Of a stretch of 64,000 bases of DNA, positions 16,046 to 52,728 are shown in pieces. This stretch comes from Takakia lepidozioides (lineage: Eukaryota > Plantae > Bryophyta). Position numbers and translations under genes: made by a program. The stretch covers positions 17,918,001 to 17,982,000 of the forward strand of contig CM060733.1 in the NCBI GenBank assembly GCA_030704615.1, read 5' to 3'. The notes under the pieces were generated by a model that saw nothing but the letters and a program-made list of their open reading frames with translations, made no database searches and was not told the DNA's origin. How positions within the stretch are numbered: the stretch's first letter is position 1; each line of letters starts with the position of its first letter.

Positions 16046-16282
16046 TACTAAGCCAGTTGAGTAGGTGAATGACTACCTGCCCCAGCAGTGACTCCCAAAT
16101 CTTACCAATTGATTAAGCCTTGTAAGGAACCAACTGTGGTGAAAATCCAAAATGCTTGTCGGTTTTAGAAAGTGAAATGCACTGCTAATTGAACAAAAAT
16201 GCTGGACCTGCTTTGGGAGGCAAGCTCGCAATACAGCCTCGCAAGGATGTGATCAACTCTCTGCCGCAAGAGTGAACATTAC

Positions 16283-21900: not shown

Positions 21901-24060
21901 GAAAAAATACACAAGAGGGCTACGGCCTGGTGGTAAGCCACTCGTGGATTGGCCTTTAGGTCTCAGGTTCAAATGTTCAACCCCTATCATCTATCTCTCT
22001 GCCTTCAGGCTGCCCCTGTAATATACTAAGTTTATAACTATTGTTTAGCCAAATGTACAACTAATTAATTTCCTATTTACTTGGACATTCTCAATGTTGT
22101 GCACCTAATCTCCCCAACCATTGTAAACGTATAGTTACTAGTAAGACATAACTAGGATCTGTCCATCTGCAATAATCTTAACTACCATCACCCTACCATC
22201 ACCAACCCCTATACCTATATTATCTAGAACCGCCTTTATGCCATCCCCATTTGCTCCGGATCCTGCTCCGGGTATAACACCCTTACAATCACAATGCCGG
22301 TTCTCTAGCCCGTTAGGAAGCCAGATGGCTTTAGCCGGTTCCCTTCCATAGCCGGTTCCTCCGGGGGCTGCACTTTCCAGGTATGCATATGTGCATAACC
22401 GGCAAATAACCGCCGGGTATGCATGTCCAGATGCCATACCCGGCCAACACTGGTTATGACACCCTGTGTCATAAAAGCAGGCATGTGGTCTACATATTTG
22501 ATACCATTGGCCATATCACAAAAGTCCTTGGACATAGTGGACCATAGTGCCTTGAAGAACTCCACCGGCATTCCATCTATCCCAGGTAATTTGTTGTTGT
22601 TCATAAGCTTAAGGGCAGCTTCGAGCTCTTTAATAGTGATCTCCTCCGTGAGCGGGATGGAATCAGCTGGTTTGAGCTTTTGAGGAAAATTGTCCAGACA
22701 CTGTGAAAGGTGGAACTGGTAAGAAAGGTCTTTGATGTCTTCTTGAAACAAAGTCTCGAAATGGGTAAAGGCTGCAGCTGTCATTTCTTTGGGGTTGGTC
22801 GTTTTGACACCATCAGAATTATACAGATCAGCTATGGTGTGAGTGGCTCGACGGAGTTTCATTTTTTGGAAAAAATATTTGGACATCTTTTCTCCCTTAG
22901 TTGACCAATTGATTCCTGCTTGCATCTTGATTTTGGATTACTGGAGGAGGTAATAGTTTTCAAGGTTAATGCGTGCTTCCAGGTAAGTCTGATAGGTATG
23001 GTTGTCACAGGACCTGGACTCCAATTTTTTCTGACAGACACTCAGGCATTTTTTACGAGCTTGAGCTTTTCTCTTCTGGGAGGCAGTGATCTATCTGCTG
23101 AGGTTTTGACTGATCTTGCTGGTAGCGGTCAGTTTGGCTTGAAATTTGAGGATGGGACAGACAAGGTGAAGCCCAGCAGAGGTCCACGCTTTCTTGATTG
23201 CCTCGAGGAAGAAGAGGATACGAAGGTGAGAGGAGTTAAGCTTATAGATGCCTCTTCCTCTCGAGTGGGAATTACGAAGCTTGAGTGTAGCAGAGATGAA
23301 AGCATGGTCAAAACCTTGGTGGATTGGTTCTTGGTGGTTTTGAAGTGCAAAGGGGGCCAAAGCGAGCAATATATAAAAACGACCGAGCCTGACCATACAA
23401 AGGTCGAGAACTGATCTATTATTTGTCCAAGTGAAGAATGGGCTTGTGGAGGAGGCATGGTGCGGGGGCCTATCTATTTCAATAAGGCTATGGTTTTGAG
23501 TGAGGTTTTGCTATGCCAAGTCCTCATCAGCTGAAAGGTGGTGGGAGTTTTGGGAACCCTGCACACACTATCCTTTTCTGTCTTCTAAGTTTTCCACCAT
23601 ATTGAAGTCCCCAGCCAAAACCCATTTGTGGATTGCTGGTTCTGCAGCCATCTTGTCATTGAGTTTGAACCAAAGAGCTGATCTGTCTGAGGCAGAGTTA
23701 GGTGCGTAGATGTTAATGAAGCCCGTGGGCTCGGAATCATTGGAGAAGAGCAGGGAGCAAAATTGAACTCTTCCTGGGTCCCAGATCTCATCCTTGAGAA
23801 TGAATTGTGTTAGGGAAGGGGATAGAAGGATAGCAGTGCCTCCTTTTGTGCCATCGCTAGAGGGTTTCCAAAGAGCTAGTGTCTTAGGCCAGATTTGATC
23901 TGTGAGGGTTTGAATTTTCTTGGCACAGAGCTTATGTGAAGAAAAACAATAGCTTGTGAGGATATAAGGGGTGTAAGCCAGATGGAGAGCTTTATTTTCT
24001 TATTAGCCATCCGGTTCGAGCCTAGACCCGTAATGTTCCAGGAAGAAGACTAACCTGCAT
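18945..24060 (-). pseudogene. LINE ORF2 (APE endonuclease, reverse transcriptase, zf-RVT)
   Basis: MQVSLL[S]WNITGL start; INIYAPN; AGDFNMV; YRPITLLNVAYK; LLDFEKAFDRVDW; SVRQGCPLAP; MFVDDT; ETLEHCLIYC. Frameshifts and stops present. Confidence 0.92.
21634..22452. mobile_element. Non-autonomous hAT element (MITE) inserted in LINE ORF2
   Basis: Perfect 16-bp TIR CAGTGTTGGCCGGGTA / TACCCGGCCAACACTG; 8-bp TSD gttattac / gttatgac; internal (A)CCGGT(T) repeats. Confidence 0.95.
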
Positions 24061-28169: not shown

Positions 28170-29258
28170 TTCTTTTTTCTTTTTCTTTTTTTTTTGGTAA
28201 AAGGCTGATTGAAGGGCTAGGGAATTGTATTGAAATAAACGAGGAAAAAATAACCTCGGAGTACATACCATGACGATGAGAAAGGGAACACTGCCCCCTA
28301 ACCTATAAACGGGAAGAGTTGCAGGAAGCTAAGGACAAGAAGATTCCACAGCGAGGGCATGGGGCTCAAGGACTAGAAGCTAGCATTTTAGTGCTTAGAA
28401 GAAACGAAAGAAAGATGGGCCTTAGATTTGCCCTCCTAAGAGAGCGCTTGTGGCGCCAATTAACATCAGATTCCTCAGGCTCTTCTGACTGTATAGCACT
28501 ACGAGAACTACCAACATGGCGAGAAGCGGGTGTTCCAGATTATCGTTGATTTTGTTGATCTTGAGCACAACTGCCCTCATTTTCCCCAGGTGTTCACAAA
28601 GCTAGAGAGTAGTTGCAATTGCCTTCCTTGTGCACATCTAGGAATAGCTGCACACAACACACGCCACGCTTTTTGAGCTTCAGATTCAAGTCTGAGTGAA
28701 CTCTATACATCACCAATCTGGCACACGGTTGGACCCCAGAGAAAACAAAAAAACACCGATACTTCCAGATATTACAGTGAGTGTGTGCTCTGAGGGTAGC
28801 TCACACTGGGCAAGTACTCCAAATAATCCCCTCGTCAAGATTAAGAACCAAAATAGAGTATTGAAAGGAGAAATCAGGACGCCAAGCTGTATAGAACTTG
28901 CGAACTTGTTGCCAGACAAAAGAGGCAAGGGGACACTCGAGAAGACAATGCTCAATAGATTCATTACAGCCCAAGCTGCACAATGAACAAAACTGAGGAG
29001 AATCAGAGATATATCTTTCCAGACAACAGACCAGTTAGCAGGCAAGGTAGGCACATGCGCCCATTTTAAATTCCACTTGGCATTGAAAATAACAGGCAGT
29101 CCAAAGAGAGTGTAATTCAGCTTAACCGAATATGCAAAGAATGGCCTGTATAAGGAGACATCCAAGCCCATTCTGCCAGGTCGGATTGAAGGAGCTGCAG
29201 AGGAGCAGAAAGGAATCAGGTAAAATAATCATCATAATGAAGGATGTTGGCTGGCGGG
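28170..29258 (-). mobile_element. 3' part of an L1/Tx1-like LINE (zf-RVT, 3' UTR, poly-A), left of the Gypsy element
   Basis: CSLCSLGCNESIEHCLLECP; T-run at ~28172-28195 (poly-A on the minus strand); 29011-29258 is repeated at 41616-41860. Confidence 0.85.
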
Positions 29259-32200
29259 TTAAATAGGTGTCAGGTGTCAAGTTAAATAAACACAGTGTGA
29301 AACTAACTAGAATAAATCTAGTTATTTGTATTTAACACTTGGAATTAGTTCAAGTGTTAAGTCAGGTGTCAAGTTTAGCTTGACACCTGAACCATCTCAT
29401 CAGGAGCTCGTCAGTCGTGCGGCTCATCTCTCTCGAGTTGAGCCTGCATGACCGAGCTCCCTCGCTGCTTAGCATCTGAGAGTACTTATGGAGGGAGAGT
29501 AGGATGTTGTGAGGTGGAGTCCCCATAGCTTGGGGTGCCCCTGGCTCGACTCTTATTTTAACGAGTGATTGTATTGTATTTCGTGTTTTTGTGACAGTGT
29601 GAGTTTAGTTTTCATTTCACTCGAGAGAGATGAGCTTGCATCGTTAGTGCGAGATGTGAGTTTTTAGTTTTGCATTGTTTTTGTTTCAAAGCTTGTTTTG
29701 AGAGCTGGTGAAGTAGAGAATTATGTAATCCATATATATGTAGAATAGAAGATAGTGGCTATGAGAATAGAAAGGACCGCGCTGCTTTGTACAGGGTTGT
29801 TGGAAGAGGCGCCCAACACTGAAGGCTGAGCCGATTCAATCCTCACCATGGGGGCCGGTCCAAGTACTAGCGGCGCCATCTGAAATCACTGAGTGGAGCA
29901 TAAGTAGAAGCATGTATTGGGGCTAGTGAGGTCACCGAGAATGGTAGAGCAGGCGGTGACGGTGCACGCAGAACTGCTACAGTTACGGGGAAGCGTTGTA
30001 TGAGAGTTACGGTCTGAAAAGACGAAAGGTGGCACTGTTGTTGGCCATTGGACATGTAAGCTCTCTTTTACTAGCAACCTCGTGTATGTTGAATGCGGCA
30101 ATATCTGGAACTGAAGGCGGAAGCTCATGGTCACCTTCAGTTAGCCGTGTTTGTCTTGAATCTACTGCAGGATATTATGGGGCTAATCAGTATGGACAGG
30201 GCCTGTAACAACTTGGTGATGATAAGGCTAGCGAATGGGGGTTTCATACTCAGCTCGATCCAAGTTTGGCTGCTGATGGTAGACAGCTTTCATAAGGTTT
30301 GATTTTGTGATTGATCAAACGACGAGGCATTCCCGTATCGTCGAGGGCAGTCCGTGATCCAAGACAGGAGCTCAGTTTCTTCCATTGGTGCTGGGGTTAA
30401 GCATTTATTAGGATTTCGGAGTTTCAAGAAGGACTGGTCGAATTTGGGTAGCCAGCACATATGTGGGCTGAGGTGGCCGGAACTGCTTTGTTGATTCTTT
30501 TCTATGCGATGGCGCATGAAATTAGTAGGCCAACCGACCTCAGTACCGCAGAGAATTGAATTCTCGTTGGAAGACGGAAGTCTGGTTTAAGCAGAGACCT
30601 CGATCTCGGCTCGGCTGGCCTTGATCGCATGGATCGCTCCACGCTCTATGACGGTGGTAGTTCTTTGGATCCACGGACGTCTCAATAATGGCTTCTGATC
30701 TATGATTTTTGGGATTTAGTTCAAGGTTTTTGCCTGCTGGCCATGAAGCTGATTAATTGCTTTGGTAGAGGCAGCCTGGCAGGTAATGCAAAAGTGCAAC
30801 CAGCAGCCACCTAGGCTGTCCAGTCGTGGCTAGGCACTTTTGACATAGCAGAGCAGGCCGCGGCAAAGGTCTATGATTCGGCTGCACATGCCCTGCAGTG
30901 AGGTAAGACCAAGACCAACTTCTTCGTGTGACGATCTGAACAATAGTCATAGTTGTACCATCAGGTCTTGGAGCAGCCCCGAGAATATATACCGTTCTGC
31001 CCAACAGATTTCCATGCTAGGAATTTCTACTGATCGGAATCTTTACTGATGGTTCACATCTTCAAAAATAAAAGTGCCTGAATCGTAGTAGGGCCCCTCC
31101 CTTGCTGGAGCGACACAAGTGATATCCTCAGCAGGGCTCATGCACAAGCGGCTGGCACTCACACTCGTCAATGCTTCCCTACTCGGTTCCTCTACACATG
31201 TAAGATCGTGGACTGAAACATTGAGGTCAAGTCGGCTTAGCCAAGAGGGAACCTGGAGACAAGGATTGGAGGAAAATTAGCGTGGCTGCCACCCCAATGA
31301 CCCTTAGCAGGTGTTGGGGCACTGTCGGATGTTGTACTGCCTGCATGGGATATGCCACTTTCTCACGAAAGACTTGCAGAGTTGCCCTTCAGGTTGTGAT
31401 TATCAGGAATTGGTAGTGGCTGGCGTGGACAACACCGTGAGGTGGAAACCGAATAGCAAAGGCAAGTTGCTCTGACTTATTTCCATACTGTACAGTTGCA
31501 CAACAAAATTCCCAAGCCTGCAATTCATGTTTCATCTGCACCCATGCCAGTGACGGCGACAGTTTGGACATTGATATTCACAACGTAGCTGATCTAGAAG
31601 GCACAGAGAACTCAGGAACCTGCGGGGAACGGAGGGCATAAGGATGTGGATAATATCACTGATATAAACTATTCCATGGATCCTGTCCCCAACAGCTCCG
31701 CAATTGAACTCTGTGGCTATGTCGACCTCGAGGAAAAGAGGTTATTTGAAAACATTGGCTCTGATCAGGGTTGTGAACTGGGATAGAATTCTTGAAGTCA
31801 ATCGTTGGCCTTCAGTATTATACAATTTGTGAGCAGTGGCCCGACCTGCCTTAATGTCTCCATTGTTAGTGTGGCTTTGGTTTTCGATAGTTGTTGATCC
31901 CACAAAACCGTTAGTTAAAGGAGAAAGGAAAATCAAATCAGATCAGGCCTATTGTCGATTAAATGGACAAATAGTATGTTTATGGGATTAGATAAACTTT
32001 GGTTGGTCATATCTTTGTCAAAAGAGCTCCGTTTGACGTAGTTTTTGGGGGGTTACCTACAGATTGTGGAAATCTACATATTCAGACATATTTAGTTTTT
32101 TGGACTCTGCTAAAAATCTATGGAATTTTTTGAGTGTGAGTGTGCTATGAAAGATCCACAATTTTGTTTCTAGAACCTGTTGTGGTCTACATGAGAGACA

Positions 32201-33655
32201 AGTTTGTGGATGTCCTCCTTGTATGGCTGGGGGCAATGAGGACGTAAATGAAGGGCAAGTCTCTTCTCTTAGCCTGTGCACACAAGGAGACAAGATTTAT
32301 GTTTCTCAAGGAACTCAGAGTGATTTGAGTGGAGAACAGTTGGACGAGTTGATAGCATACTGGGAGTCAGGCATTAGCAATAGACAACAAACTGCTGTAG
32401 TTGGCGTTGAGGGCCTCAATATTGCTTTGGACAGTCAGAACTCTGTTGGAGCAAGCGTTCTACAGCTGTAGGTAAAATACCAAAGTGGATGGAAGCTAGG
32501 CTTGGAACACAGCCAAAGACAGCCCCGGGGACCAAGGTGTTCAGCCACAAGGCCGTGGTGTACTGGAGCAAAGGAGCAGGAGCTGCACAAGTTTTTGCAA
32601 TCAGACGTGGTTGCAGTCGGACACGCACTGCACGAGGCAACCACGAACGAGGGTTCATTAGCAACGAACAGTTTGTTCTGCTTGAAGGAGATGCAGTCAT
32701 TCGCAACGAGGACACCCGCAATTGTCTCAAAGCTTTTGAGTTGAGAGACTGTCAGACCCTACCTTTATTTTCTTTAGTATTCAGTGAGCGGGAGATAGGG
32801 GAGTATTGTTTTGTCTCTACCTGGCAGAGAGAGGAGGAGGGTTGGTTAGAGCGAGCTACTGTAGCTTGGGATAAGGTTAGTGGCAGGTTTCTGGATATAG
32901 ATATACCTCCCACACCTTACCATCATGCAAAGCGAGGCACTTTGAGAGAAGTCTGGCAGTTGATAGCATACATTAGAATTAGATCTTGGTTGGTCGGACC
33001 TATTCTTCCCCTCCCTCTCTTTACTATTTCATTACTTTGTACTTGTAGTTGCCAAAGCCTCTCTTGGTGGAGGCCAGTCAGTCCGGGGTTTTTGGGCTGG
33101 GGTATTCTGCAGGAGCAGCATTGCGGAGGGATTTTGATGTGGGGGTGTTGATGTTTTGGTTTCTTGTGTTTGGATCCCCCCCACACCTGCATGCTTGACT
33201 GTGCGCCATATTGGTTTTGTGTGGGCGCTTGCTTTCATAGGGATTAGGCTGGATTTGATCACCGGTCAATCCTAGAGTATGCTGTCGGTGGTGAGGCTGG
33301 AGTGATGACCAGCAAGACCACTAGTGTTTCTTCTATGGTGAGGCTGGGTTGATGACCAGCCAACCATAGGAGTTCTTGCGGTGGATGCAGGTGCAGATGC
33401 CTTTAGCCACTGGGATATGACCCTTAATCCGCAACAGGTGCTCACCCGTGTCACTATTAGAATTAGTACTAGAGCCTTATAGTGTCAGGTGGGGGAGGTG
33501 CGGGTTGTGAGTGTCATCACGGAGTTACCCAAGGGTTTTGAAGGGAGTACGGTGAGAGTGGGTTCACAAGACGAGGTGTTCGGTTCAGACCACCTTCACC
33601 TCCATCCTCAACTAGTGCAGAGTCTGACACAGACTCGGAGGCTTCATCAACAGGT

Positions 33656-34900
33656 GTGCAATTTCCTTCGCCATTGTTGTGGGACGACATGGAGGAGATG
33701 TATGGAGCTACCAAAGGGCCTCGTAGGTACTCTGGAGCTGTGGGCACAATCGAGTTGGATGACTTTATCCAGGAGTTCGACAGCTGGTGTGATTTGCAGC
33801 AGATGCGTAATCCACAGCTGTTCACACCATTCACGGCGTGGAAGGGACTGTTCCAACATTTGGAAGGCCCGCCTATGGACGGTTACCACGAGTTCAGGCG
33901 AGGACATGAAGCAGAGATTGAGGAGTGGAGGCTGTATTGGTCACCTGACTACGTTTCCATTACTCGAGGCACGACGCGACCAGTAGCTGCATCAGCACCA
34001 ATATCTCCCACTGCCAGCACTAATAGTGGAACAAGTAGTGCCGGTACTTCTGCAGGTGGTACCAGTTCAAAAAGTGCTACTACTCCTCATGCCACAACTA
34101 CAACACATGTGCCTAGATTCAACCCGGTGGTGGAGTTCTTCCAGGAGTTGCGGAGGAACTACCAAGGCGTACGGACAGAGAAGCTGCGAAGTTTGCAAGA
34201 CTTCCAGCGCAAATCCAGTGAGAGCTTGCGAGAGGCCTACACTCGTATGAGGCGCTTGATAAATATGACCCAAGGGGTTACTGAAGCTCAGGCAATCCAG
34301 TTCTGGTATGGAATTTTGGACAAGGAGCTCAGGAGAAGGGTGCAGGATACAACCCTGTTACAAGCGGCCCAACCCACATTAGTAGATGTGTTTCTGCTGG
34401 CTGAGCGGATTGAGCTCAACATGGTGGAGGAGCGAGTTGTTACCATTGGATTTGGTAAGGACATGCCTGCACGAGGCGCAGCTGCCAGCCAACAGGTACA
34501 AGGGACTACCCAATAGCGTGGTCAAGGGGGCAAGGTTGCCCAACCCAAATTCCATGGAGCTTACAGGGGGCCTCAGGTGCAGAGGCCAGTAGCTTCTTTT
34601 GCAGGCCAACAGCAACCAGGGGTGGTATGTTGGACATGTGGAGGACCCCATGTCAAGAAAGATTGCCCAGAAAGTGGCAAAGGGCCGGCACAAGCACAAC
34701 CTGCACAGTTGCAGTGTAGACATTATGGCAAGTATGGGCATGGAGATGTCCAGTGTTATGACTTGCACCCTGAGTTGCGGCGAGGCCAGTTCCAAGGGAA
34801 CAATGGTGGTCGAGGGCGAGGTGGAGCACCTCAGAAAGGACAAGGTGCAGGACGAGAGCAAATAGTATGGCCAAGGACGTGGAGGTCAGGGCGTTGACCA
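33656..34900 (+). pseudogene. Gypsy gag (capsid-like region and two zinc knuckles)
   Basis: ORFs 33656..34516 and 34577..34897 are in frame across a TAG. Motifs: RYSG...ELDDFIQEFDSW; FQRKSSESLREAYTRMRRL; knuckles CWTCGGPHVKKDC and CRH(Y)GKYGHGDVQC. Confidence 0.85.
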
Positions 34901-35599
34901 AGGCATGACCGACCGGCTTCAGCAGCTAGAGCAAAGGCTTGCTGTCATGGCCACAACTCAGGTGGTACCAGCTCCAAGACCTGAGGGTCCACCTCATGTT
35001 CCTCCTCAGCAACGTCATCCTGACGGAGGAGACATGGGAGGCATGGGATTTATATGTGGGGCAGCACTACCATTAGTGCAGGTGGAATCTGCTGCAGCCG
35101 TCACTCGAAGAGCAGCACGAGTTCCTGAGCCACGAGGTGCAGAGGTGGAGTTGGATCCACAGCGTGGGGAGGCAAGCCGTCAGGCGAGGTTGCCTCAATC
35201 ATTCATCTTGGCGGAGACAGTGTCGACGACATCCATGGCACCTAATTCTCGCCCCACGGATACCAAGGCAGAGGTTATTGTGCCATTGGGAAGAGCTACA
35301 CGTGCAACACTGATACCTGCTGCCAAGGCTAGTGCAGCTAGTGGGTTGTTGGGGGCGGCCACCTCTGTGTGTCAGGCCCCACTGTTCTCGGCAACCATGA
35401 TTGCGACGCCGGGGGTAAGACCAGCTGCAGTGTTCAGACTAGCAGCAACACTCTGTGAGAGTGGGGAGGTCACTTCATCTTCTGAAGAGTTAGTGGAAGG
35501 TGTAGTGGCAGAGGGGTCCTCGGATTTGAGGGTCAAGACTGCCACGACTGCACCATGGCTGCAGCTGCCAGGTTGACGGAGCTGCCAGCTAGGCTAGTC

Positions 35600-36030
35600 T
35601 TTGAGCGCGCCATGGTGACATCTGGAGTTGTCTTGTTAGACAACCAGGATGACATTTTCTCTTTGAGTGGACCGGCAAGCAAGAGGTACCATCCACTGCG
35701 GGTCTTGTTGGACTCGGGAGCTCAGCCATTGATGTTGGGCAGAGCCGCTATTGCAGGTTTGGGCCTCATGGAGGCGGATATTGAGCCCTGTCTCTTCCAG
35801 ATACAGACATCTCTGGGAGGATCAGAGCAGGCTCGGGGCATGACACGGTGTGAGTTGGCCATTAGACTACAGCCAAATCATCCTATAGATGGCTCAGTGA
35901 TGCAAGCCAAGGCCATTGTGACAGACGCGGTCTCTTACGATGTCATCGTTGGTGGGGCAGTATTGTATCCCATGGGCTTCACCCTGGATTTTTGGGAGGA
36001 GTCAGCATCCTACAGGCCTGGATTGTAGTC
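35600..36030 (+). pseudogene. Retroviral-type aspartic protease
   Basis: RVLLDSGAQPLML active site; YDVIVGG. Confidence 0.85.
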
Positions 36031-36419
36031 AGGGGATGGTCGTCGTATATAGCTCCATGTGACATTCATTGGGGGTGTTGTTGCTGCCCAGCGGGGCAAG
36101 ATGCCAACACTAGCAGCCTTCAAAGCTGCAGTTAGTTGGCCTAGAGAGTTGTTGGAGAGCAATGCCCATGCAGAGGATGTGCCACCTCCAGCAGAGCAGG
36201 ATGACATGCATGGTACGGCGGAGTTGCCTGCCATGGTTGCTCGCACTCCATTCTGGGATACGAGCAAGGATTTGCAGCAGGCTGCTGAAAGACGTGTGCA
36301 ACAAGCCTGGGTAGAGGCCTTTGTACCGTCAAGAGAGGAGGAGAGTGTGGTGATTGCACCAGAACCACCTCAGTTGTCACCATTGGACACCACACCTCTT
36401 GTGTGGCAGTGCCCGGATG

Positions 36420-37400
36420 AAGGCATATGCCTTCTGGACTTGTTTGGCGGGATCAGCACTGGATTGGCTGCAGTGCTACAGGCAGGTATACAAGTTCAAC
36501 GTTACCTGTATGTAGAGAGGGATGAAGACTACACGACGCGTCTCACTGCGCCATGTTGCTCAATTGGTGCAGCAGTACCCTGATTTGCTGCCAGTGTCTG
36601 CAGTTCGTGGATACCAGCAAGCCTTGCCATCAGACATCTCTTTGCTGAGGGCGCAGGATTTGGAGCGGCTTGGCCCTATTCACTTGGTAGTGGCAGGTTG
36701 GCTCTGCCAAGGGCATTCATCAGCCGGGCATGGCAATGGGTTACAAGACTCAAGGTCACGCCTGTTTTGGGAGATGCTGAGGGTCCTACGCTATTTACAG
36801 CTTCAGCAGACAGACTCTCCGGCATATATCTTTGAGAATGTGCCATTGATAGGTGATTCTTGAGCCAAGGTGATGGCCAGTGTACATCAAATGCGGTCTT
36901 GGCTTGGGTCAGCAGTGTTGCTGGATGCAGCTACAGTGGGGTCACGAGCTCATTGCCCACGACTATGGTGGATCAACTTGATGCCACCTGCATTGCTCAA
37001 GCGTGCATTTGATGGGATGTAACGGCCACCAAACCTGACGATGGATAGCATTTTGGACATAAGGGAGGCAGTCTTAACGTGTGAGACACGATGACCGATC
37101 ACCTTTGGCAGTGGTCAATAAGGTGGGTTACCCACGAGCAACATTGCCTACACTGCTCAGCTTTCCAGCATCTCATGCTTTCTGGGATGGTGGACCTGGC
37201 CTCTTGTGGGATAGCCAGTTGCAGCAGTTAGTGGAACCCAATGCTGACGAGCGCGAGCGGGCGATGGGTTTTACCACTGGTACCACGACGGTGCCATCTC
37301 TTTCTGAGGCATCACGTCGTCAAGTATTGGGGCAAGCAATGGATCTCAATTGCTTGACCTGGATTATCAGCTTGGCTATGGCTGAGCAGCGCAGAGTACG
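36420..37400 (+). pseudogene. C5 DNA cytosine methyltransferase domain (DNMT3-like) within the Gypsy polyprotein
   Basis: Motifs in canonical order: I LLDLFGGISTG (36431); II YVERD; III SDI; IV VAGW(L)CQGHS (GWLCQ at 36696-36710); VI YIFENVP (FENV at 36831); VIII AH(C)PRLWWIN (36951); IX EPNADERERAMGF; X RRQVLGQAMD. Two frameshifts and two stops. Confidence 0.92.
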
Positions 37401-37768
37401 AAGTACATTTCCCTTGATAGTCTCTCTGCCTACCGAGACGGTACAGGCTGGGAGCAAACAGGTGAGGCACACGTGGGAGGTGCTCGAGGTTCAGAGGGAG
37501 TTGGCAGCCAAGGCAGCGGTGATGGATGAGGTTGGGGATTTTTCTCGGGTTGAGGAGGTCCTCAAGGATGAGATGGTGGGGCAGGATGAGACATTGTCAC
37601 TGACAAAGCAGGCAGTGGTCACTGCTCAAGAGGTTGCAGCATAGCAACCACGGGACGCGTCTTCTACCTCTAAGCCTGTTGGACTCAAGGTTGCAGTCAC
37701 GGAGGACAACTGGGAGCCTGATGTTGGACCCATAGTAACCGGAGGAGGGACGACGTATACGGCGGTTC

Positions 37769-39150
37769 TTGAGGGCTTACATGAACTGCTTTGCCTTCAG
37801 TTTGAAGGACTTGGGAGCACTGAAGGGTCAAGAGATTCGCATTAAATTGGCCACTGACATGCCAATCTTTTGGAGACCCTATAGATATAGTGACATGGAG
37901 AGGTCCTTGTTTCAGATGAGGACTCAGGATCTTTGGGAGGCTGGTTTGGTGGAGCTATCTGGTGGAGAGTATGCTTCAGCCACAGTGATATCAGCCAAGA
38001 AGGATGTCTATGGCAATTGGACGGAGAGACGTATGTGCGGTGATTATCGGCCTGTAAATCGTCAGACCAAGTCCGATAGGTATGTCATGCCGACACCAGA
38101 GGAGATCTTTGATGCCATTGGACATGTCAAGGTCTTTAGCACTTTGGATTTACGATCCGGATATCACTAGTTGCCGATCAAGAAGGCGGATAAGCAGAAG
38201 ACGACATTTTGGGGGATCAATGAGCACGGGAAGGACTGCCTATACCAGTGGCGGTTCTTACCATTTGGGCTTAAGAACGCTCCTGCAGAGTTTCAGAGAG
38301 TCATGGACAGGATTCTAGCAGGGGTGGTGTTTGCTCGGTGCTATATAGATGACATCATCATCTTTAGTGCTACGGTGGAGGAGCATGAGAGACACCTTCA
38401 AGTGGTATTTGAGCGCTTGAGGGCGCACGGATTGAAGTTACATCCGGGGAAGTGCAAGTTTTTCCACAACCAAATTGAGTATCTGGGTCACATGATATAT
38501 CCTGGAGGATTGGGGATACAACAGACTAAGGTAGAGGCCATTGCACAGATTCCACGCCCCATGGATGTGAGCCGAGTTCGAGCTTTCATGGGGTTGGCAA
38601 ACTATTATTGACGGTTTGTCAAGGGATTTAGTGCCATTGCAAAAGCTCTAGCCAAGCTGACCAAGGTGGACCAGGAGTAGCAGTGGGAAGATGAACAAGA
38701 ACAAGCTTTTCAAGAGCTCAAGGTGAGGTTGACCTCGGCGCCCATTTTGAGATGACCTATCAGGGGGCGTCCTTTTCAGCTGCATACAGATTGGAGCATG
38801 CTGGGGCTTGGAGCGGTGCTCACACAGGTGGATGATGAGGGAAGAGAGTTTGTAGTGGCTTATGCTAGCCGCTCGAACAACGTTGCAGAGGCTAAGTATA
38901 GCTCATATGAGGGAGAGTGCTTGGCTACAGTGTGGGCCGTGGCACATTTCAGGTGCAATCTATACGGCAATCTCTTTACCCTTGTCACGGATCACTAGCC
39001 ACTCAAGTGGTTGATGGAGTTAGACAAGCTTACGGGGAAACTTGCACGATGGGCACTCATACTTCAAGAGTATGACTTTTAGGTTGTGCATCAACCGGGT
39101 TTGGTCAATCGGGATGCGGATGGGTTGAGTCGCAATCCATGCACGAGCCA
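37769..39150 (+). pseudogene. Gypsy reverse transcriptase and RNase H
   Basis: RT: RMCGDYRPVN, LDLRSGYH, LPFGLKNAP, YIDDII. RNase H: LHTDWS..GLGAVL, YSSYEGECLA, VTDH, DADGLSR. Confidence 0.97.
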
Positions 39151-39479
39151 GCATGATGACATTGGAGCTCGGTGGCATGGCGAGACGGACGAGGAGATGG
39201 TGCCCGGATGGCATGCATCTGCATTTCTATGTATCTTGGCAGCGGAAGGCCAGGTTGGACCTACAATAGGGATGACTGTAGACCGAGTGTCTGAGGACCC
39301 TGAGGCCAGCAATGAGCAAGGTGACACCAAAGATATACATGAGGATTCAGCTGTGTCGGACTATCTCCGCACTGGAGACACGGCAGCCACTGTGACTGCC
39401 AAGGAGAGGGATCGGATCCTACAACGAGCCAAAAGGTTCAAGTGGGAGGGGACACACCTGCTCCGAGTGTGGGAGGATG

Positions 39480-40580
39480 GTCGAGTGAGGATTGTACCTC
39501 ACCCAACACAACGGGCACGGTTAGTGCGGCATGCCCATGAGGAGTTGGGGTATTTTGGGGTGCGACGCACTCATAGTCTACTGCAGGGGCAGTATTGGTG
39601 GCATGGTATGCACACAGAGGTGCAACAATTTGTGGCTAGGTGCATGGTGTGTGACAGGGTGCGTGCTTCATTCAACGCTCCTACACCACAATTGCACCCT
39701 CTTCCGATTATGGGATTGGGCTACAGGTGGAGTCTTGACTTCGCAGGGCCGTTGCCACTGACCATGCGCCACAACAAGTACGTGTTGGTGATGGTGGAGC
39801 ACTTCTTCAAGTGGATCGAGTTGGTTCCATTGCCTGATAAGGCTAGTGAGGGAGCTGCGTATGCATTTTTGGATCGTGTACTTAACCGATTCGGTGCTCC
39901 AGCTGAGGTACTCACGGATCAAGGGAGAGAGTTCTTGGGGGAGTTTCAGGCGTTGTGTGACAAGGCCTTGATAGACCACTGCACCACTTCTCGAGATCAT
40001 CCTGAGGCCGATGGCTTGGCAGAGACAGTTGTGCAAACGGTTAAGAGAGGATTGCGCAAGTATGGTTTGCAGAAGGGGCACCTAGGAGATTAGGACCTTC
40101 AGCTACCTTGGTTGGCCATGGGCTACAGGTTTAGCAAGCAAGCATCACTTGCCTCGTTCTCACCTTATTTCCTTCTCTTTGGCCGAGAGCCAGACTTGCC
40201 TACATCTATTCGTAGGGAGGCTGCAATAGTCCTCAATCTTGACGATCCAGACGTGTGGGCACGTGCATGTGGTCAACGCGCGGAGTTGTTTAAGAAAGTC
40301 ATGCCCATGGCTTTCGAGAATCTTGGCATTGCACAACATCGTGATACGTTGAGGTATGCTACCATACGTGGTGGGGGCTATCGTCCTGGGGTTTGGAGAT
40401 TTCACCCTGGTGACTATGTTTATCTGTAGCAAACTGCTCCAACGACCCTGGATGTGACTGCAGGACGTGTTATTTTGAGGATTCGAGAGGTATTGCCCTC
40501 AGGCGTCTTGATCTTGGAGGGTCGGGATGGCATGACTTGGAAGGACCATGTGCGTAATTGAGCGCCATGTCACCTTCCGA
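39480..40580 (+). pseudogene. Gypsy integrase
   Basis: HHCC region HAHEELG(Y)FG...CMVC; DDE core WSLDFAGP, LTDQGREF, ADGLAE. Confidence 0.95.
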
Positions 40581-40633
40581 ATGTCGATGGCAGGATTGAC
40601 CCAAACCTGGCAGTGGTACTTGCAAGTTTGAGG

Positions 40634-40778
40634 TGTATGTTGTGTGGGTCTGCTAGAGGGGCAGCCACCATGCTGGTGTGTGATCAATGCTCTAGAGGTT
40701 GGCATAATGGGATGCTTGACTCCACCTCTTGAGATGGTTCCTAATGGGGATTGGTTATATCTGCATTGCATTGGATAG
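40634..40778 (+). pseudogene. PHD finger at the integrase C-terminus
   Basis: CMLCGSARGAATMLVCDQCSRGWH[frameshift]MGCLTPPLEMVPNGDWL(Y)LHC matches the C4-H-C3 PHD pattern with the conserved P-x-G-x-W; one Cys is TGT>TAT. Confidence 0.85.
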
Positions 40779-42528
40779 TGGGAGTGGATACAACCATGGA
40801 ATGCTAACAAGAAATGCAAGGCCAAGTTACTAGGAAACCAACACACGAGATCCTGGCTCAAGTTCACAGATTGCAAGACGGCGACTAACGATGGGGCTGC
40901 TCTTGTACCCGGCCACTTGTCTATAGAGTTTGAGTACAATAGGGACAGTGATAGAGGACTTAGTACGGCTGTGGCTATTACATCTTGTAGCTATCTGGAG
41001 TTAGAGGGACCTAACCACCAGCTAGGGGGGCGATTGTGGCAGACTACTTTATTGTGCATATATGTGTGGTGTGGTTTGGACAACGATGTAGCTGTGTAGC
41101 GATACGTATGCGCACGACAGCTGTCAAGTTAAATAAACACAGTGTGAAACTAACTAGAATAAATCTAGTTATTTGTATTTAACACTTGGAATTAGTTCAA
41201 GTGTTAAGTCAAGTGTCAAGTTTAGCTTGACACCTGAACCATCTTATCTTCACGAGCTCGTCAGTTGTGCGGCTCATCTCTCTCGAGTTGAGCCTGCACG
41301 ACCGAGCTGCCTCGTTGCTTAGCATCTGAGAGTACTTATGGAGGGAGAGTAGGATGTTGTGGGGTGGAGTCCCTATAGCTTGGGGTGCCCCTGGCTCGAC
41401 TCTTATTTTAACGAGTGATTGTATTGTATTTCGTGTTTTTGTGTCAACAGACAGTGTGAGTTTAGTTTTCATTTCATTGTGGCAGACTACTTTATTGTGC
41501 ATATATGTGTGGTGTGGTTTGGACAACGATGTAGTTGTGTAGCGATACGTATGCGCATGACAACAAACTTCCAAAGGAATCCAGAGATCTTAGCTGCTCT
41601 ATTCTTCCGCCACACATCTTTCCAGACAACAGACCAGTTAGCAGGCAAGATAGGCACATGCGCCCATTTTAAATTCCACTTGGCATTGAAAACAACAGGC
41701 AGTCCAAAGAGAGTGTAACTCAGCTTAACCGAATACGCAAAGAATAGCTTGTATAAGGAGACATCCAAGCCATTCTGCCAGGTCGGATTGAAGGAGCTGC
41801 AGAGAAGTAGAAAGAAATCAGGTAAAATAATCATCATAATGAAGGATGTTGGCTGGCGGGATGGGGCTACACTAACCAATGTTCCTGCAGAAAACACGAA
41901 TAGCATACAGGCTAGTCTCATAAGCAGAAGAAAAACAGGGCCTGAGGAGAGTACCATCCAAAGACACATTGAACTTCCACCCAATAAAGGAATTCGAGGA
42001 ACGAGAGATGGCATAGAAGGCAAATGGAACGGAGCCCGAACCCGATGACTCCAGATCAGAACCTCCCATCCAAACCGAGAGAGAACGCAGGGCAGCAGGG
42101 AAGGAGCAGATGTTAGACCAGCGAGATGGGATCTGATTTCACAGTAAGTTGCCAGGCAGTGGCTCTTCTTGATGAGAGAGAAGCGGAAACAAGATCGCAG
42201 GGCAGAAAGGTTCCAAAGTCCTATATATGATAGAAGTGCGAGACCACGGCCTGCTCCCAGTTGGCCCATCTCTTAGAGCAAGTCAGAAGATCCCCAGAGT
42301 CCACATTGTAATTCCCAAATCAGGGTTGCTGCCCAGTTGCTGAAGGACCTCCTCCACTGTCGAAGGTGTGGATTGGAAAAGCAAAGGTCGCATACGAAGC
42401 CAGGCAGTCAAAATTGACTGCCAAATTTTGGAACCCAAAGGCTTAGCTCTGGAGGTTCTGGCACCCTACACGATCCATCTTAGAGACTGAGGCCAGACAC
42501 CAGACGAAGGGGTGGCATCAAGCACGTG

Positions 42529-43455
42529 CACTACAGGAAAAAGGGAGGGTTGCGACGCCTACCCCCCGTGGCCCCTCTCCCATGCGACGCCCTGGGTGTC
42601 GCAACAATACTCCAAAATCCACTTTTATGTGGATTTTGGCCAAGTCCTTGATTGCGACGCCTGAGGCGTCGCTGGACAATTTTTTATTTATTTTTAAATA
42701 TCGCAGCCCAGCTGCGACATCCTAGGCGTCGCATCACAAAAAAAAAAAAAAAAAAAAAAAAAAACTTCGCATTTTTAATGCGACGCCCTGGGTGTCACAA
42801 AAATGTCGCATCAAGCACCCCAGGAGGGAAATTAAAAAATTAAAAAATTAATTATTATTTTAAAAAAAATCGCATTTTAATGCGACGCCTTGGATCAAGT
42901 CATTTTTTAGCAACGCCTAGGGCGTCGCATTTGAGTTTTTTTTTGTTCATAAGTCATTTGTAGCGACGCCTCATTTCTAGCGTCGCTACAAATGACTTGA
43001 TCATTTTTTGGTTTCTAGAGTAGAGGGTGCAGGAAAAGCGACGTCTCTGGCGTCACTTACATTTGAGCGACGCGAGGAGTGTCGCTTTGAGGTCGCGACG
43101 AGCAACGCTCGCATCAACTACCTTATGTATAATTAAAGCATGAGTTTGTGTGTAAGTTTGGTAAGTGATATGTTGGTTAGTATGAAGTGTTTTACTATGT
43201 GTATAATCTAGAGGTTTTGAGTTCAAATTTGTCTAGCAATATGTTGAATAATCAATATGTGTCGTATGTTGAAGGGTTAGGTTTCACACTACATGGCTAA
43301 TGTGTGTCTCGCCATTTTTTGAACCATGCACAATCCCGTTTTTTTTTTAAACCATGTGGATCCCGCCATTTTTTAAAATTCAAAATTCAAAAAAACCGCA
43401 AATGCGACGCCCGGGGCATCGCTCCCAAACAGCAACCCCTAGGGCGTCGCATTTT

Positions 43456-43488
<33 letters not shown>

Positions 43489-43670
43489 GGTGCCTGTATG
43501 ACCATTATGCAACGTCCGGAGCGTCACATTAAGTCTTACATTCTGCGACGTCACCATAGCGATGCATCAGGCGTCGCAGATTTGCGATTTCCGCGGAGCC
43601 GGAAAATCGCCATTAGTGACGCCAGGGGCGTCACTAGAGCGTCGTTAACCCCCCCCCAAATGGTGTAGTG
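42529..43670. mobile_element. Non-autonomous CACTA element
   Basis: Termini CACTACA...TGTAGTG, perfect 3-bp TSD gtg/gtg, subterminal GCGACGCC/GGCGTCGC repeats at both ends. Confidence 0.95.
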
Positions 43671-45238
43671 GTGATTCCTAACCAAAACTTCAAGTGACGA
43701 GAGATTAGTTAGCATTCTAGGGATCTACTTAGCAAGAAGGAAGATAACATGCGCTAGAGGGTCAATAATACCTAACCCCCCATCCTTCTTCTTTTGAGTG
43801 ATCTGTTCCCAACTGACTAAGGCTCTCCTGGAGGGGGAGGCTGGGGTAGCCCCCCAGATAAAGTTCCTAACTAGGGACTTTATTTGATTGATAATCGAGG
43901 AGCCCGCGGACCACACTGAGGTTGTAAACCAAATAGAGGCCAATAGAACTAGATTAGCGACAAGAGTTCTTTCCACTCCAATAGCTTAGCTTCCTTTTGA
44001 GTTTGAGGATGATAGCCTCATAATGAAGTTGATCTAAAATCCCATGGCCAATCATATGACTCAAAATATTATGAGCTTGCCCATCTTGGAGCCATCGGAG
44101 CCCCAGATCTTGACCCCACGGAGCAGAGTGAGAAGCGGAGGCCAGAGATTTGATCTTCAAGAGGATTGCAACTGTTCTTTCCAAATAAACCTCAAGTCCA
44201 GAGGCAGAATAGAACAAATTGAGAGCTTGAAGAGCAGCAGCTACGTTGCAAGATGAGGAGTTACCAATAAGAAACACAGTGTCATCTGCGTACATAAAAG
44301 CCTTAATGCTGGAGGGGGAGGGCAACGAACGGGGGATTTTCAAACCTTGAATAGTCGAGTTAGATTGAAGCAAGTGACCAAGAGCATTAGCTGCCAAAAG
44401 GAAGAGAAAAGGTGCCAAATTGGGCTTGCTAGAGGCCGAAGAAATGAGGATTTTGACCCAAGAAAGGAAAAAAACGAGCCAAACCCAATTTAGCTATGAC
44501 ACCCAAAAGGAAAGCATTCTCAAAATCCAACATAAGTAAGGCAAGGGGTTGATCCGTCTCGTAAGCGTGATGCAAGGCCTCAATGGAAAGGAGATGTTAT
44601 CAAGCTGAATCAACATAATTTTTATGAACCCTGTCTAATCAGGACGAACAAGCTTGCGGAGAAGAGGTTGAAGCCTCATCGCCAGAGATTTAGCTATGAT
44701 CTTATAAGTGGAAGAAGAGTAATAGGCCTATAATTGGTGATGAGATCTCGATCACCTTTTTTGAAGATAAGCACAATAACACCTTGGGACACCTGATAGG
44801 GCATAATTCCTTTAGCCGTGACATCATTAGCCATATGCAGAAAATCCTCCCCAACATGCTCCCATAACGATTTAATAAAACTCATCAGGAAGCCCATCCA
44901 GACCCGGGGATTTAAGGGAGGCGAGAGCCTCAGTGGCTTCCATCAATTCCAAGGCAGTGAAAGGAGCATAAAGAGACTAGCAATCTTCTTTGGAAAGAAT
45001 ACTGGGAGAGAATCCAGTACAGGAGACATATTGGATGACGAATTAGCAGAGATAGACGGAGGGGAAAAAATATCCGAAAAGTAGGAAGCGGCGAGGGAGG
45101 CCAACAATTTTGGATTAGTTTGGGGAACATTTATCCGGTCCAGCAGGGAACAGATGGATGTATCTGCTCGTCGTTGTTTCGCCTTATGGAAAAAGTAAGT
45201 AGTCATCTTTTCGCCTTGTAATTAGGACCAATTCACAC

Positions 45239-51200: not shown

Positions 51201-51232
51201 CCTACTAACCCTAAGGCCATCTTGTCTTACTT

Positions 51233-52728
51233 ACTAAGTTATCGGGAGTTTATCAAATTACCAAGAGTAACTTGGGAAACTGCTCAAGAAGCTTCTTTTG
51301 GAAGAAACTTCTCCATCAAGATACCTCATTTGCTTAAGGAAGCTTCTCCATAAAAAAACTTTTGTTTAATCTTGGAAACTTCTCCATCAAGAAACCTCCA
51401 TAAGGGAAGCTTTTTAGGGAATTTCTTAGTAGCCAGTATATATAAGAGGCGAGACTGGATACTCTTCAGTCTCGCCAATACAAGTTCAAGCTACTCTTGT
51501 TTCCAGTCCCAGTACTCCAGTCCAGCTTCCAGTACTGTAGTCCAGTTTCTAGTATCTAGTACTCCAGTCCAGTTTCAAACATTCCAATATCCAAGTCAAG
51601 TTCCAGTATCTTGTACTCTTGTCCATTGTTATAAAAATAATCTTGATTCATGTATACCCATCATGCATTTGGCCACGCCGAGTCTTGTACCTCTAGTCTG
51701 ATCTCTTGTTTGTGTTCAGTCATGCTTGTCAGTTTGACGAGACTGAAGTTTGTTCCTTAGTTAGTTAAGATGGAAGACACATTTGCGGAAATGGTCGCCA
51801 TATTGCAGAGTCTTCAGCTCCAGATGCAAGAACTTCGTACATCTACTGCCCAATTACAAGCTGATCAGTCTCAAGATCTTGGCAACGTTCTCCACAATTT
51901 GCAACAACAAATTTCAGAGTTAAATGAGTCGAACAATGGATCTTCAACCATACGAGTCTCTACTGCAACAGCTCATACTGCAACGGTTCCTCTTCAACAC
52001 ATTATTAGAGAACCAAAGATCAGCATGCCCGAGAAATTTGATGGGACGAGATCAAGATTTCGCAGTTTTGTTCAACAAATACGACTGTTCCTACGACTAC
52101 ATCCACAACGCTACCTCGATAAAGGTATTCAAGTCGGATTCATAGGCACCCTTCTATCAGGCACTGCCCTATCTTGGTTTGCACTGCTATTAGAAAAAAA
52201 ATCGCATTTACTATACAATTTTGAAGCATTCATGTCCGAGTTCACTGCAACGTTTGAAGAAAATGATAGGGAGAGAGTTGCAGAGACAAAGATGCGAAAT
52301 CTTCGACAATGAGCACGTTCTGTTTCCGTTTATGCTGCCGAATTTTGACAACTTGCGGGCGACCTCGACTGGAATGAGAAGAGTCTCATTAGTCAGTTTC
52401 AATGTGGGCTAAAAGAGGATGTAAAAGATTTGTTGCTGATAATGCCAAACGTGAGCACATTGAGCGAATTCATCACCCAAGTCATTGCATGCGATAATCG
52501 TTTGTTCGAAAGACGTCAGGAGAAGTGATCTGGATGGTCGACGACGCATCATACCGCTGCTACTACGACACCAAACACAAAGATCCATCAGACATCTGGT
52601 AGTGATCCTATGCAGATTGATGCTGTCCGATTCAAGCCATTGACGCCACAAGAAAAAAGACGGCGCTCGAATGGATTATGCCTCTATTGTGGAGAAGAAG
52701 ATCACATAGCATTAAACTGCCCCAAAAA
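51233..52728 (+). mobile_element. Tcn1/Sushi-like Ty3/Gypsy: partial LTR and gag pseudogene (51770-52728)
   Basis: EPKISMPEKFDGTRSRFRSF...GTLLSGTALSWF...LR[Q*]..SVSVYAAEF..L..DLDWNE; PMQID...LTPQEKRRR...LCLYCGEEDHIALNCP (PEG10/Sushi-type gag signature). The LTR matches 8391-8990. Confidence 0.88.

What the first reader, a model, noticed from the sequence alone, without database searches (positions are those of the whole stretch)
40634..40778. PHD finger, not a chromodomain, at the integrase C-terminus of the same element
Seen: a C4HC3 pattern with GWHMGCLTPPL..VPNGDW.C after the integrase, just before the stop and PPT. Known: chromoviral integrases use a C-terminal chromodomain for chromatin targeting, PHD fingers read the H3 tail (often H3K4 state), and animal DNMT3 is guided by a PHD-like ADD domain. 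Inference: the element couples a chromatin reader to integrase and carries a DNA-methylation writer, forming a self-contained targeting and marking module.
Basis: partly seen in the sequence, partly recalled or inferred. Interest (0 to 1): 0.72.

Follow-up and report, generated by a model that had tools for sequence, protein, structure and literature searches.

The report
Histone-reader finger on plant retrotransposon integrase
This is a broken copy of a green-plant jumping gene whose family ends its integrase with a PHD finger predicted to bind unmethylated histone H3 tails and likely to steer insertions away from active promoters, while its DNA methyltransferase sits in an earlier reading frame closed by a conserved, likely leaky stop codon, so the two likely do not act as one read-and-write unit.

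Summary
The PHD is real, but broken in this copy: there is a frame break after the His and ligand 7 is Tyr; three stops lie upstream. In relatives it ends the RT-RH-integrase frame: 69 of 90 homologues carry it, always after integrase, and none lists a chromodomain. It follows the integrase tail in 53 of 56 scorable loci; dN/dS is 0-0.14 among open copies but 1.0 in a decayed subfamily. Its best matches are readers of unmodified H3 (ORC1b, ATXR5, BHC80, KDM5-PHD1); 0 of 64 have an aromatic residue at the H3K4me3-cage position. A DNMT3-like domain co-occurs (26 of 27 loci), but in the land-plant branch it ends Gag-protease before a conserved stop in a leaky TMV-type context (29 of 38 loci), so an ADD-like module is unlikely. 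Algal relatives place the DNMT directly before integrase-PHD. Closest known: KnitGypsy-Dnmt3 (methyltransferase, split repeats) and Chlamydomonas Gypsy-7a (PHD, intergenic bias). This scan noted the family, stop and split ends before on other DNA. Binding and targeting are untested.

The parts
29275..29619 (+). Left terminal repeat A1; the element begins TGTCA
   Evidence: 94% identical to 41118-41476
29619..29635 (+). Primer site, a 17-nt perfect reverse complement of 29422-29438 inside A1 (predicted Tf1-type self-priming)
   Evidence: L003 has a different 17-nt pair at the same place
33542..34897 (+). gag with zinc knuckle (broken)
   Evidence: PF03732 E 7e-4, below cut-off; local match
35654..36040 (+). 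Aspartic protease (broken)
   Evidence: Weak Pfam hits; local match to P0093
36431..37404 (+). DNMT3-like C5 cytosine methyltransferase, in three frame pieces
   Evidence: PF00145 E 2e-8; profile map; the homologue in L037 matches DNMT3A/B/C best
37642..37650 (+). Conserved amber stop followed by CAR-YYA (predicted readthrough site between ORF1 and ORF2)
   Evidence: motif defined in PMC2754532
38003..38497 (+). Reverse transcriptase (broken)
   Evidence: PF00078 E 3e-25
38684..39073 (+). RNase H (broken)
39509..40219 (+). Integrase H2C2 finger and DDE core
   Evidence: PF17921 E 5e-15, PF00665 E 3e-12; a homologue's model matches foamy-virus and Ty3 integrases
40229..40633 (+). Integrase C-terminal part: long helix, SH3/Tudor-type barrel and a conserved P-C-H-L-P linker of about 20 residues
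   Evidence: linker Cys invariant in 41 of 41 and 49 of 49 aligned proteins
40634..40769 (+). PHD finger (the finding); frame break near 40706, ligand 7 is Tyr; stop at 40776-40778
41024..41033 (+). Polypurine tract directly before repeat B1
   Evidence: same place in most of the 15 loci printed
41033..41119 (+). Repeat B1, ending GACA; with a 2-nt spacer and the start of A2 it forms a 10-bp palindrome (41116-41125)
41122..41476 (+). Repeat A2
41476..41562 (+). Repeat B2; the element ends TGACA (layout A1-ORFs-B1-A2-B2)
   Evidence: 98% identical to B1

Best explanation
The stretch is the broken PHD finger that ends the integrase of a green-plant Ty3/gypsy lineage, and in working copies it likely binds the free, unmethylated start of the histone H3 tail, which would tether the integration complex to nucleosomes and likely bias insertion away from H3K4me3-marked promoters. 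Shown: the order RT-RH-integrase-barrel-PHD-stop in one open frame; its conservation from green algae to bryophytes; purifying selection among open copies; the Ala1 and Arg2 pocket residues; and no aromatic residue at the K4me3 cage position. Inferred: that the protease leaves the PHD on the mature integrase, that it binds H3, and that this biases insertion, as the chromodomain does in chromoviruses. The methyltransferase is a separate matter: it ends ORF1, would be made in Gag-like amounts, and likely methylates the element's own cDNA in the particle. RT-integrase-PHD would be made only by readthrough of the conserved stop.
For: 69 of 90 homologues carry a PHD, in every case after the integrase (67 of 90 by precomputed Pfam). 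53 of 56 scorable de-duplicated loci have it directly after the integrase C-terminal domain, 45 in the same frame and 4 with no stop from integrase to PHD. L037 has ORF1 of 1369 codons (gag, protease, DNMT), one TAG and ORF2 of 1047 codons ending in PF00628 E 2.6e-10. PHD dN/dS is 0-0.14 in the 7 of 10 pairs of near-open copies that gave a value. The 60 best PDB sequence matches shown (of 92) are CHD4, PHF12, Lid/KDM5 PHD1, BHC80, KAT6, ATXR5, DPF, UHRF, BAZ2, ORC1b, AIRE and similar; none is ING, BPTF, TAF3, RAG2 or PYGO (reader classes from PMC3241642, partly recalled). The model (pLDDT 85.8) matches ORC1b PHD bound to unmodified H3 (Z 9.4, rmsd 1.4, 52 aligned) and ATXR5 PHD (Z 8.6) above the K4me3 readers ARID5 (6.1) and TAF3 (5.9). 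Among 64 PHDs: Asp after Cys3 in 62, Trp/Phe in the Ala1 pocket in 64, Pro 59 and Gly 55, matching KDM5A D312, W335, P331 and G333; His-2 is Gly in 62, Ala in 2, aromatic in 0 (that His-2 is the cage Trp position is recalled). The PHD-bearing Gypsy-7a_cRei inserts 2.6 times more often than chance between genes. Stop plus CAR-YY lies before RT in 29 of 38 loci (7 exact CARYYA, 22 other, mostly CAA-CCC), against 7 of 1595 control windows and 0 of 901 decay stops followed by CARYYA.
Against: No binding or insertion-site data were obtained. The acidic residues that hold unmethylated K4 in KDM5A/BHC80-type fingers are mostly missing in the nearest relatives (1 of 6 with an acid before Cys1, 0 of 6 at the E305-like place; 17 of 25 and 25 of 33 in the more distant groups), so K4 discrimination may be weak in land plants. 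Within the large decayed subfamily PHD dN/dS is 1.03 (282 pairs, 25 copies) while integrase gives 0.38: decay, small sample or relaxed selection. Three Closterium proteins run 140-160 residues past the integrase core with no PHD, and P0009 has only a degenerate Cys-rich tail, so the finger can be lost. 3 of 56 loci lack it. Some PHDs do not bind H3 at all (PMC9640981 abstract). The authors note that the Gypsy-7a bias could be due to selection, and I could not show that Gypsy-7a belongs to this lineage. Most members of the biggest subfamily miss the last base of CARYYA and have an ATG next, so re-initiation is possible.
Confidence: 0.5

Rival explanations
1. The PHD binds the H3 tail through Ala1 and Arg2 only, as UHRF1's does, and ignores K4 methylation; it is a general nucleosome tether that raises integration efficiency without steering it.
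For: Ala1 and Arg2 pocket residues are conserved but the K4 acids are missing in the nearest relatives; UHRF1 PHD is among the sequence and structure matches and binds H3 regardless of K4 state (PMC3214078 abstract). An invariant Cys about 20 residues before the finger recalls UHRF1's extra zinc site.
Against: ORC1b, ATXR5, BHC80 and KDM5-PHD1 match better than UHRF1; most distant members keep an acid before Cys1; an intergenic bias is reported for a PHD-bearing Gypsy.
Confidence: 0.22
2. The PHD has a non-histone job: it binds DNA or a host protein, or stabilises the integrase tail, perhaps in the unusual step that makes inserted copies start and end at a palindrome inside the LTR.
For: All complete ends seen are of the split type (B-A-B right ends in 15 loci plus the window; A alone at the left end in the 12 loci printed plus the window), so this integrase does something atypical. 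The linker to the barrel is strongly conserved. Non-histone PHDs exist.
Against: The H3 Ala1/Arg2 pocket residues are kept across the whole lineage. The model suggests two separate domains (pTM 0.52; matches cover 38-101 and 111-166 apart).
Confidence: 0.18
3. First reader's module: the PHD guides the element's own methyltransferase, as ADD guides DNMT3, so that reader, integrase and writer act together at the insertion site.
For: Near-total co-occurrence (26 of 27 loci). The predicted preference for unmethylated K4 is the same as ADD's. In 25 of 80 proteins on the tree the DNMT lies just before integrase with the PHD after it; DNMT-to-H2C2 gaps are as short as 62-71 residues.
Against: In this branch the DNMT ends ORF1 behind a conserved stop, about 1000 residues from the PHD. 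One locus (L065) has a PHD without a DNMT. The isolated Klebsormidium DNMT showed no activity in yeast, which the authors call inconclusive.
Confidence: 0.1

Closest known systems
KnitGypsy-Dnmt3 of Klebsormidium nitens (de Mendoza et al. 2018, PMC5890265; seen: term passages, parts 3-4 of 7, three supplements searched; Fig. 4c image and the main supplement not seen)
   Same: Gypsy domains, DNMT3-like domain before RT, DIRS-like split repeats; the Klebsormidium DNMT-bearing protein P0024 is a homologue (46% over the integrase query) and groups with two PHD-ended proteins (SH-aLRT 100, quick tree).
   Different: Its text and the three readable supplements never mention a PHD, though the figure may draw one. 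It describes the DNMT inside Pol, whereas here a conserved stop puts it at the end of Gag-protease. Here the hosts include liverworts and Sphagnum.
Gypsy-7a_cRei of Chlamydomonas reinhardtii (bioRxiv 10.1101/2022.06.16.496473 and PMC9940879; term passages seen)
   Same: Gypsy polyprotein with a PHD, intergenic insertion bias, targeting proposed. Volvocine relatives of this window's integrase (Tetrabaena, C. eustigma) also end in a PHD.
   Different: No methyltransferase is mentioned for it, the PHD's place and reader class are not given in the text, and I could not test whether it belongs to this lineage.
Chromoviruses, above all Tcn1 / Tf1-Sushi (Neumann et al. 2019, PMC6317226; term passages seen)
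   Same: A chromatin-reader domain at the end of integrase; predicted self-priming like Tcn1.
   Different: PHD instead of chromodomain; DNMT; split termini, which that survey's LTR-finder criteria would likely miss. The paper has no mention of PHD or methyltransferase.
REM1 (antisense ORF with PHD and chromodomains) and CR1-like LINE ORF1 PHDs
   Same: Retrotransposon-borne PHD fingers proposed to guide insertion (cited).
   Different: Not fused to integrase (recalled; the papers were not held).
EpiLTRs (bioRxiv 10.64898/2026.05.21.726589; term passages seen)
   Same: LTR elements joining methyltransferases with a chromatin reader.
   Different: Chromodomain, adenine methylase and a DNMT4-related enzyme; stated to be distinct from streptophyte Gypsy-DNMT3.

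Membership tests
PHD finger (PF00628) | C4HC3 ligands with a Pfam score above the cut-off | tested here: met
   Family: L037 40.6 bits, P0001 38.4 bits, cut-off 24. This copy alone: 7 of 8 ligands and a frame break; 20.6 bits for the in-frame half.
PHD finger (PF00628) | Cross-brace PHD fold | tested here: met
   Model matches ORC1b PHD Z 9.4, rmsd 1.4 over 52 residues; BHC80 rmsd 1.2.
H3K4me3-reading PHDs (ING/BPTF/TAF3) | Aromatic cage with the invariant Trp | tested here: not met
   His-2 is Gly 62, Ala 2, aromatic 0 of 64; feature; its position at His-2 is recalled.
Unmodified-H3-reading PHDs (KDM5 PHD1, BHC80, ORC1b, ATXR5) | Ala1 pocket (P-x-G-x-W) and Arg2-binding Asp after Cys3 | tested here: met
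   Pro 59, Gly 55, Trp/Phe 64, Asp 62 of 64.
Unmodified-H3-reading PHDs (KDM5 PHD1, BHC80, ORC1b, ATXR5) | Acidic residues before Cys1 that hold Lys4 | tested here: inconclusive
   1 of 6 nearest relatives; 17 of 25 and 25 of 33 in the other groups.
Unmodified-H3-reading PHDs (KDM5 PHD1, BHC80, ORC1b, ATXR5) | Measured binding to H3 peptide | not testable with these tools
   No binding assay; no complex prediction was run.
ADD domain of DNMT3 | GATA-like plus PHD-like finger next to the catalytic domain in one protein | tested here: not met
   Single canonical PHD, no ADD family hit at E up to 1; separated from the DNMT by a stop and about 1000 residues.
Chromovirus | Chromodomain at the integrase C-terminus | tested here: not met
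   No PF00385 listed in 90 homologues or found in L037 ORF2; the PHD ends the frame.
Chromovirus | Placement in the chromovirus clade by RT-RH-INT phylogeny | not testable with these tools
   No reference set of named clades was available; the tree holds only this lineage and one outgroup.
Gypsy-DNMT3 (KnitGypsy-Dnmt3 type) | Ty3/gypsy order PR-RT-RH-INT with a DDE integrase | tested here: met
Gypsy-DNMT3 (KnitGypsy-Dnmt3 type) | Intronless DNMT3-like domain in the element | tested here: met
Gypsy-DNMT3 (KnitGypsy-Dnmt3 type) | DIRS-like split repeats | tested here: met
   Window, L003 and L046 show the full A...B-A-B layout.
Gypsy-DNMT3 (KnitGypsy-Dnmt3 type) | DNMT inside the Pol frame | tested here: inconclusive
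   True for P0009, P0021 and P0024; in the land-plant branch a conserved stop lies between DNMT and RT.
TMV-type stop-codon readthrough | In-frame stop followed by CAR-YYA | tested here: met
   Window and 7 of 38 loci exact; 22 more have CAR-YY plus another base. Readthrough itself was not measured.

The most novel reading that the evidence does not exclude
A green-plant-wide Gypsy lineage, missing from the standard plant classification, replaced the chromoviral chromodomain with an integrase-terminal PHD that reads unmethylated H3K4, the same cue that animal DNMT3 reads through ADD. It lands in chromatin without K4 methylation and arrives pre-methylated by its own DNMT3. In the algal branch DNMT, integrase and PHD stay one polypeptide, a true read-insert-write enzyme; the land-plant branch moved the writer to Gag behind a leaky stop.
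Probability: 0.2. Interest if true: 0.8.

Novelty: new variant of a known kind. Interest (0 to 1): 0.47.

Why it matters
Reader-guided insertion is established for chromodomains; for PHD-bearing retrotransposons it has been proposed since 2003 but, in the papers I could search, not tied to a position on integrase or to a histone state. This lineage gives a fixed architecture (integrase-barrel-PHD-stop), a specific prediction (unmodified H3, not H3K4me3) and natural contrasts (Closterium proteins without a PHD; two positions of the DNMT). It also has relatives in Marchantia, Sphagnum and volvocine algae, where chromatin maps can be compared with insertion sites. It would show a second, independent way for LTR elements to avoid promoters. 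The copy in the window is itself dead and ordinary.

Tried and rejected
No whole genome is held for this window, so there is no copy number and no insertion-site survey. No RNA holder was listed; one run guessed to be RNA has a 1205-nt contig across integrase and PHD, which is no evidence of expression. Pfam on the second PHD half alone: no hit. Homologue search with the DNMT piece gave only 4 proteins among 188 candidates. Foldseek on the 591-residue model returned only integrases, so the tail was folded alone. The careful tree did not finish; one search is the quick tree (81 rows; proteins with under 200 residues of integrase match, P0066 and P0092 were left out), and its two main architecture groups have only SH-aLRT 89, so no order of events is claimed. 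De-duplication at 99% left 68 of 80 loci, but some near-duplicates remain (L003/L005, L017/L021, L070/L071, L007/L042) and most loci come from one subfamily, so counts overstate independence. 12 of 68 loci were dropped before the PHD count because the contig ended or lacked the C-terminal domain. Rejected: chromodomain; chance Cys pattern; a host PHD gene inserted by accident (fixed place in 53 of 56 loci); a decay origin for the DNMT-RT stop (it is the only stop in otherwise open L037, and 0 of 901 decay stops share the context). No short target duplication flanks this copy, though L003 and L046 have 4-bp ones. The sequence look-up in earlier findings gave nothing. Paper searches listed no paper describing an integrase-terminal PHD in a DNMT-bearing or land-plant Gypsy; Fig. 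4c and the main supplement of PMC5890265, bioRxiv supplements, Repbase and Craig's thesis could not be seen and may show it. No complex prediction was run.

Full report
Observation. The stretch 40634-40778 holds a PHD finger in two frames. Four Cys and the His lie in the integrase frame; the next Cys, the PPL..VP.G.W stretch and the last Cys lie in the next frame; the seventh ligand position codes Tyr, and a stop follows two codons later. Pfam finds the first half below cut-off (E 4.6e-4). Read with X at the break against a profile made only from relatives, it scores 69.5 bits, against 15.7 for the best of 990 scored shuffles. Contigs from the same organism label are one base shorter at the break (34, 15, 21 and 2 contigs in four runs from two samples). 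With three stops between the integrase core and the PHD, this copy is dead.

The element. It runs from 29275 to 41562: gag, protease, a C5 methyltransferase (PF00145 E 2e-8), RT, RNase H, integrase and PHD. Its repeats are split: A1-ORFs-B1-A2-B2. A 17-nt sequence right after A1 is the reverse complement of a site inside A1, and L003 has a different 17-nt pair there, which predicts self-priming. The nearest named relatives are from Calypogeia, Sphagnum and Marchantia, so the host is likely a bryophyte.

Is the PHD part of integrase in the family? A search with the integrase frame returned 90 longer proteins among 5439 candidates; 67 list PF00628 and none lists a chromodomain. My own map finds a PHD in 69 of 90, always after the integrase. 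Of the 21 without one, most end inside or just after the integrase, one is unrelated, and three Closterium proteins, P0075, P0083 and P0009 continue without a clear PHD. Of 80 metagenome loci, 68 remain after 99% de-duplication and 56 can be scored: 53 have the PHD right after the integrase C-terminal domain, 45 in the same frame, 4 with no stop from integrase to PHD. Among near-open copies PHD dN/dS is 0-0.14 in 7 of 10 pairs, the other 3 being saturated; within 25 copies of the large decayed subfamily it is 1.03, against 0.38 for integrase, which I cannot explain beyond decay and a short region. A model of the tail (pLDDT 85.8) shows a long helix, an SH3/Tudor-type barrel like other integrase C-terminal domains (RSV Z 6.3, foamy virus Z 5.9) and the PHD.

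What would it read? The best sequence matches in the PDB are CHD4, PHF12, KDM5/Lid PHD1, BHC80, KAT6, ATXR5, DPF, UHRF, BAZ2, ORC1b and AIRE; none of the 60 shown (of 92) is an ING, BPTF, TAF3, RAG2 or PYGO finger. The best structural matches are ORC1b PHD with unmodified H3 (Z 9.4, rmsd 1.4) and ATXR5 PHD with H3 (Z 8.6). K4me3 readers need an aromatic cage with an invariant Trp, and K4me0 readers use acids before the first Cys (PMC3241642, passages). In KDM5A PHD1, D312 holds Arg2 and P331, G333 and W335 hold Ala1 (bioRxiv 10.1101/715474, passages). Among 64 element PHDs the matching residues are Asp 62, Pro 59, Gly 55 and Trp/Phe 64, and the cage position (His-2, recalled) is never aromatic. 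The K4 acids are common in distant members (17 of 25, 25 of 33) but rare in the nearest (1 of 6). So the finger is predicted to bind the free H3 start and not H3K4me3; whether K4 methylation repels it, or is ignored as by UHRF1 (PMC3214078 abstract), is open.

Does it work with the methyltransferase? They co-occur: a DNMT lies between protease and RT in 26 of 27 loci where that interval is visible, and DNMT3A/B/C are its best PDB matches. But an in-frame stop lies between DNMT and RT. In L037 it is the only stop between a 1369-codon ORF1 and a 1047-codon ORF2. The window has TAG-CAA-CCA at 37642. Stop plus CAR-YY occurs at this place in 29 of 38 loci (7 exact CARYYA, 22 mostly CAA-CCC-ATG), against 7 of 1595 control windows; none of 901 decay stops is followed by CARYYA. 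CAR-YYA after UAG is the TMV readthrough signal and works in plants (PMC2754532, passages). The inference is that Gag-protease-DNMT is abundant and RT-integrase-PHD is scarce, and that the DNMT acts on the cDNA in the particle, as de Mendoza et al. proposed for DIRS DNMTs. That makes an ADD-like partnership unlikely here. In the branch that holds Tetrabaena and C. eustigma proteins the DNMT instead sits between RNase H and integrase, as little as 62-71 residues before the H2C2 finger, and the PHD has a further tail. There a fused writer-integrase-reader remains possible.

Comparison with print. KnitGypsy-Dnmt3 has the DNMT3 and the split repeats (PMC5890265); its text and three readable supplements do not mention a PHD, but the figure was not visible, and its likely protein P0024 groups with PHD-ended proteins. 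Gypsy-7a_cRei has a PHD and an intergenic bias. PHDs on retrotransposons are called widespread (PMC6673714; bioRxiv 10.1101/2021.11.30.470311). The plant classification of Neumann et al. mentions neither PHD nor methyltransferase. EpiLTRs join methyltransferases to chromodomains. Searches listed no description of an integrase-terminal PHD in this lineage or in land plants. This scan has noted the family, the stop and the split ends on other DNA; I had found the stop and the repeat layout before those look-ups, and the notes are not counted as support.

Verdict. The element is a land-plant variant of the known Gypsy-DNMT3 kind. The best reading is an integrase-tethered reader of unmodified H3 (0.5); the coupled reader-writer module is unlikely in this branch (0.1). 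Interest 0.47.

Noticed in passing
window 41116-41125, 29275, 41562; L003, L046 and 13 further loci: Inserted copies begin TGTCA and end (T/C)GACA, and the same two ends face each other across 2 nt inside the right-hand repeat. The purine tract and primer site predict a linear copy B-A...B-A, so the inserted A...B-A-B form looks like an end-joined circle opened at this internal palindrome. L003 and L046 have 4-bp target duplications.
   Followed up: partly
window 29013-29258 and 41616-41860: A 246-bp piece of a LINE relic is duplicated (96%) on both sides of the element, and no 4-bp duplication is seen; the right flank continues the LINE frame, while the left copy seems to carry a deletion. 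A long target duplication or a recombinant of two copies.
   Followed up: partly
window 40565-40580 (P0001 C524): An invariant Cys in a P-C-H-L-P motif about 20 residues before the PHD, conserved from algae to bryophytes; possibly an extra metal ligand.
   Followed up: partly
P0057, P0063 and other algal-branch proteins: The PHD is followed by a tail of 100-340 residues; PF21743 (PTM/DIR17-like Tudor) is listed for P0063 and weakly hits P0057, which would be a second possible reader.
   Followed up: no
L065 8553-9101: A copy with only 548 nt between protease and RT, no DNMT, and a PHD: a deletion or a DNMT-less subfamily.
   Followed up: no
L006, L022, L023, L026, L028, L046, L055 (about 0.8-1 kb extra in DNMT, RT-RH or other parts): Many copies of the large subfamily carry an insertion of similar size; L046 has two related ones (about 80% alike), suggesting a small element that nests in these copies.
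   Followed up: no
window 2075-3580 and 7238-8124: Arrays of about 50-bp units with an inverted GCGACCGCC...GGCGGTCGC core, in opposite orientations, flanking a hAT-type DUF659 frame at 5626-6207.
   Followed up: no
window 13305-14087 (-): Plant O-methyltransferase gene piece (PF08100, PF00891), the only clear host gene among the frames scanned.
   Followed up: no
window 18945-24000 (-), 41565-44500 (-), 51761-55656 (+): Two LINE relics flank the element and a second Ty3/gypsy relic lies further right; 15019-16046 recurs at 62371-63327, and 8351-8992 recurs inverted at 51227-51771.
   Followed up: no
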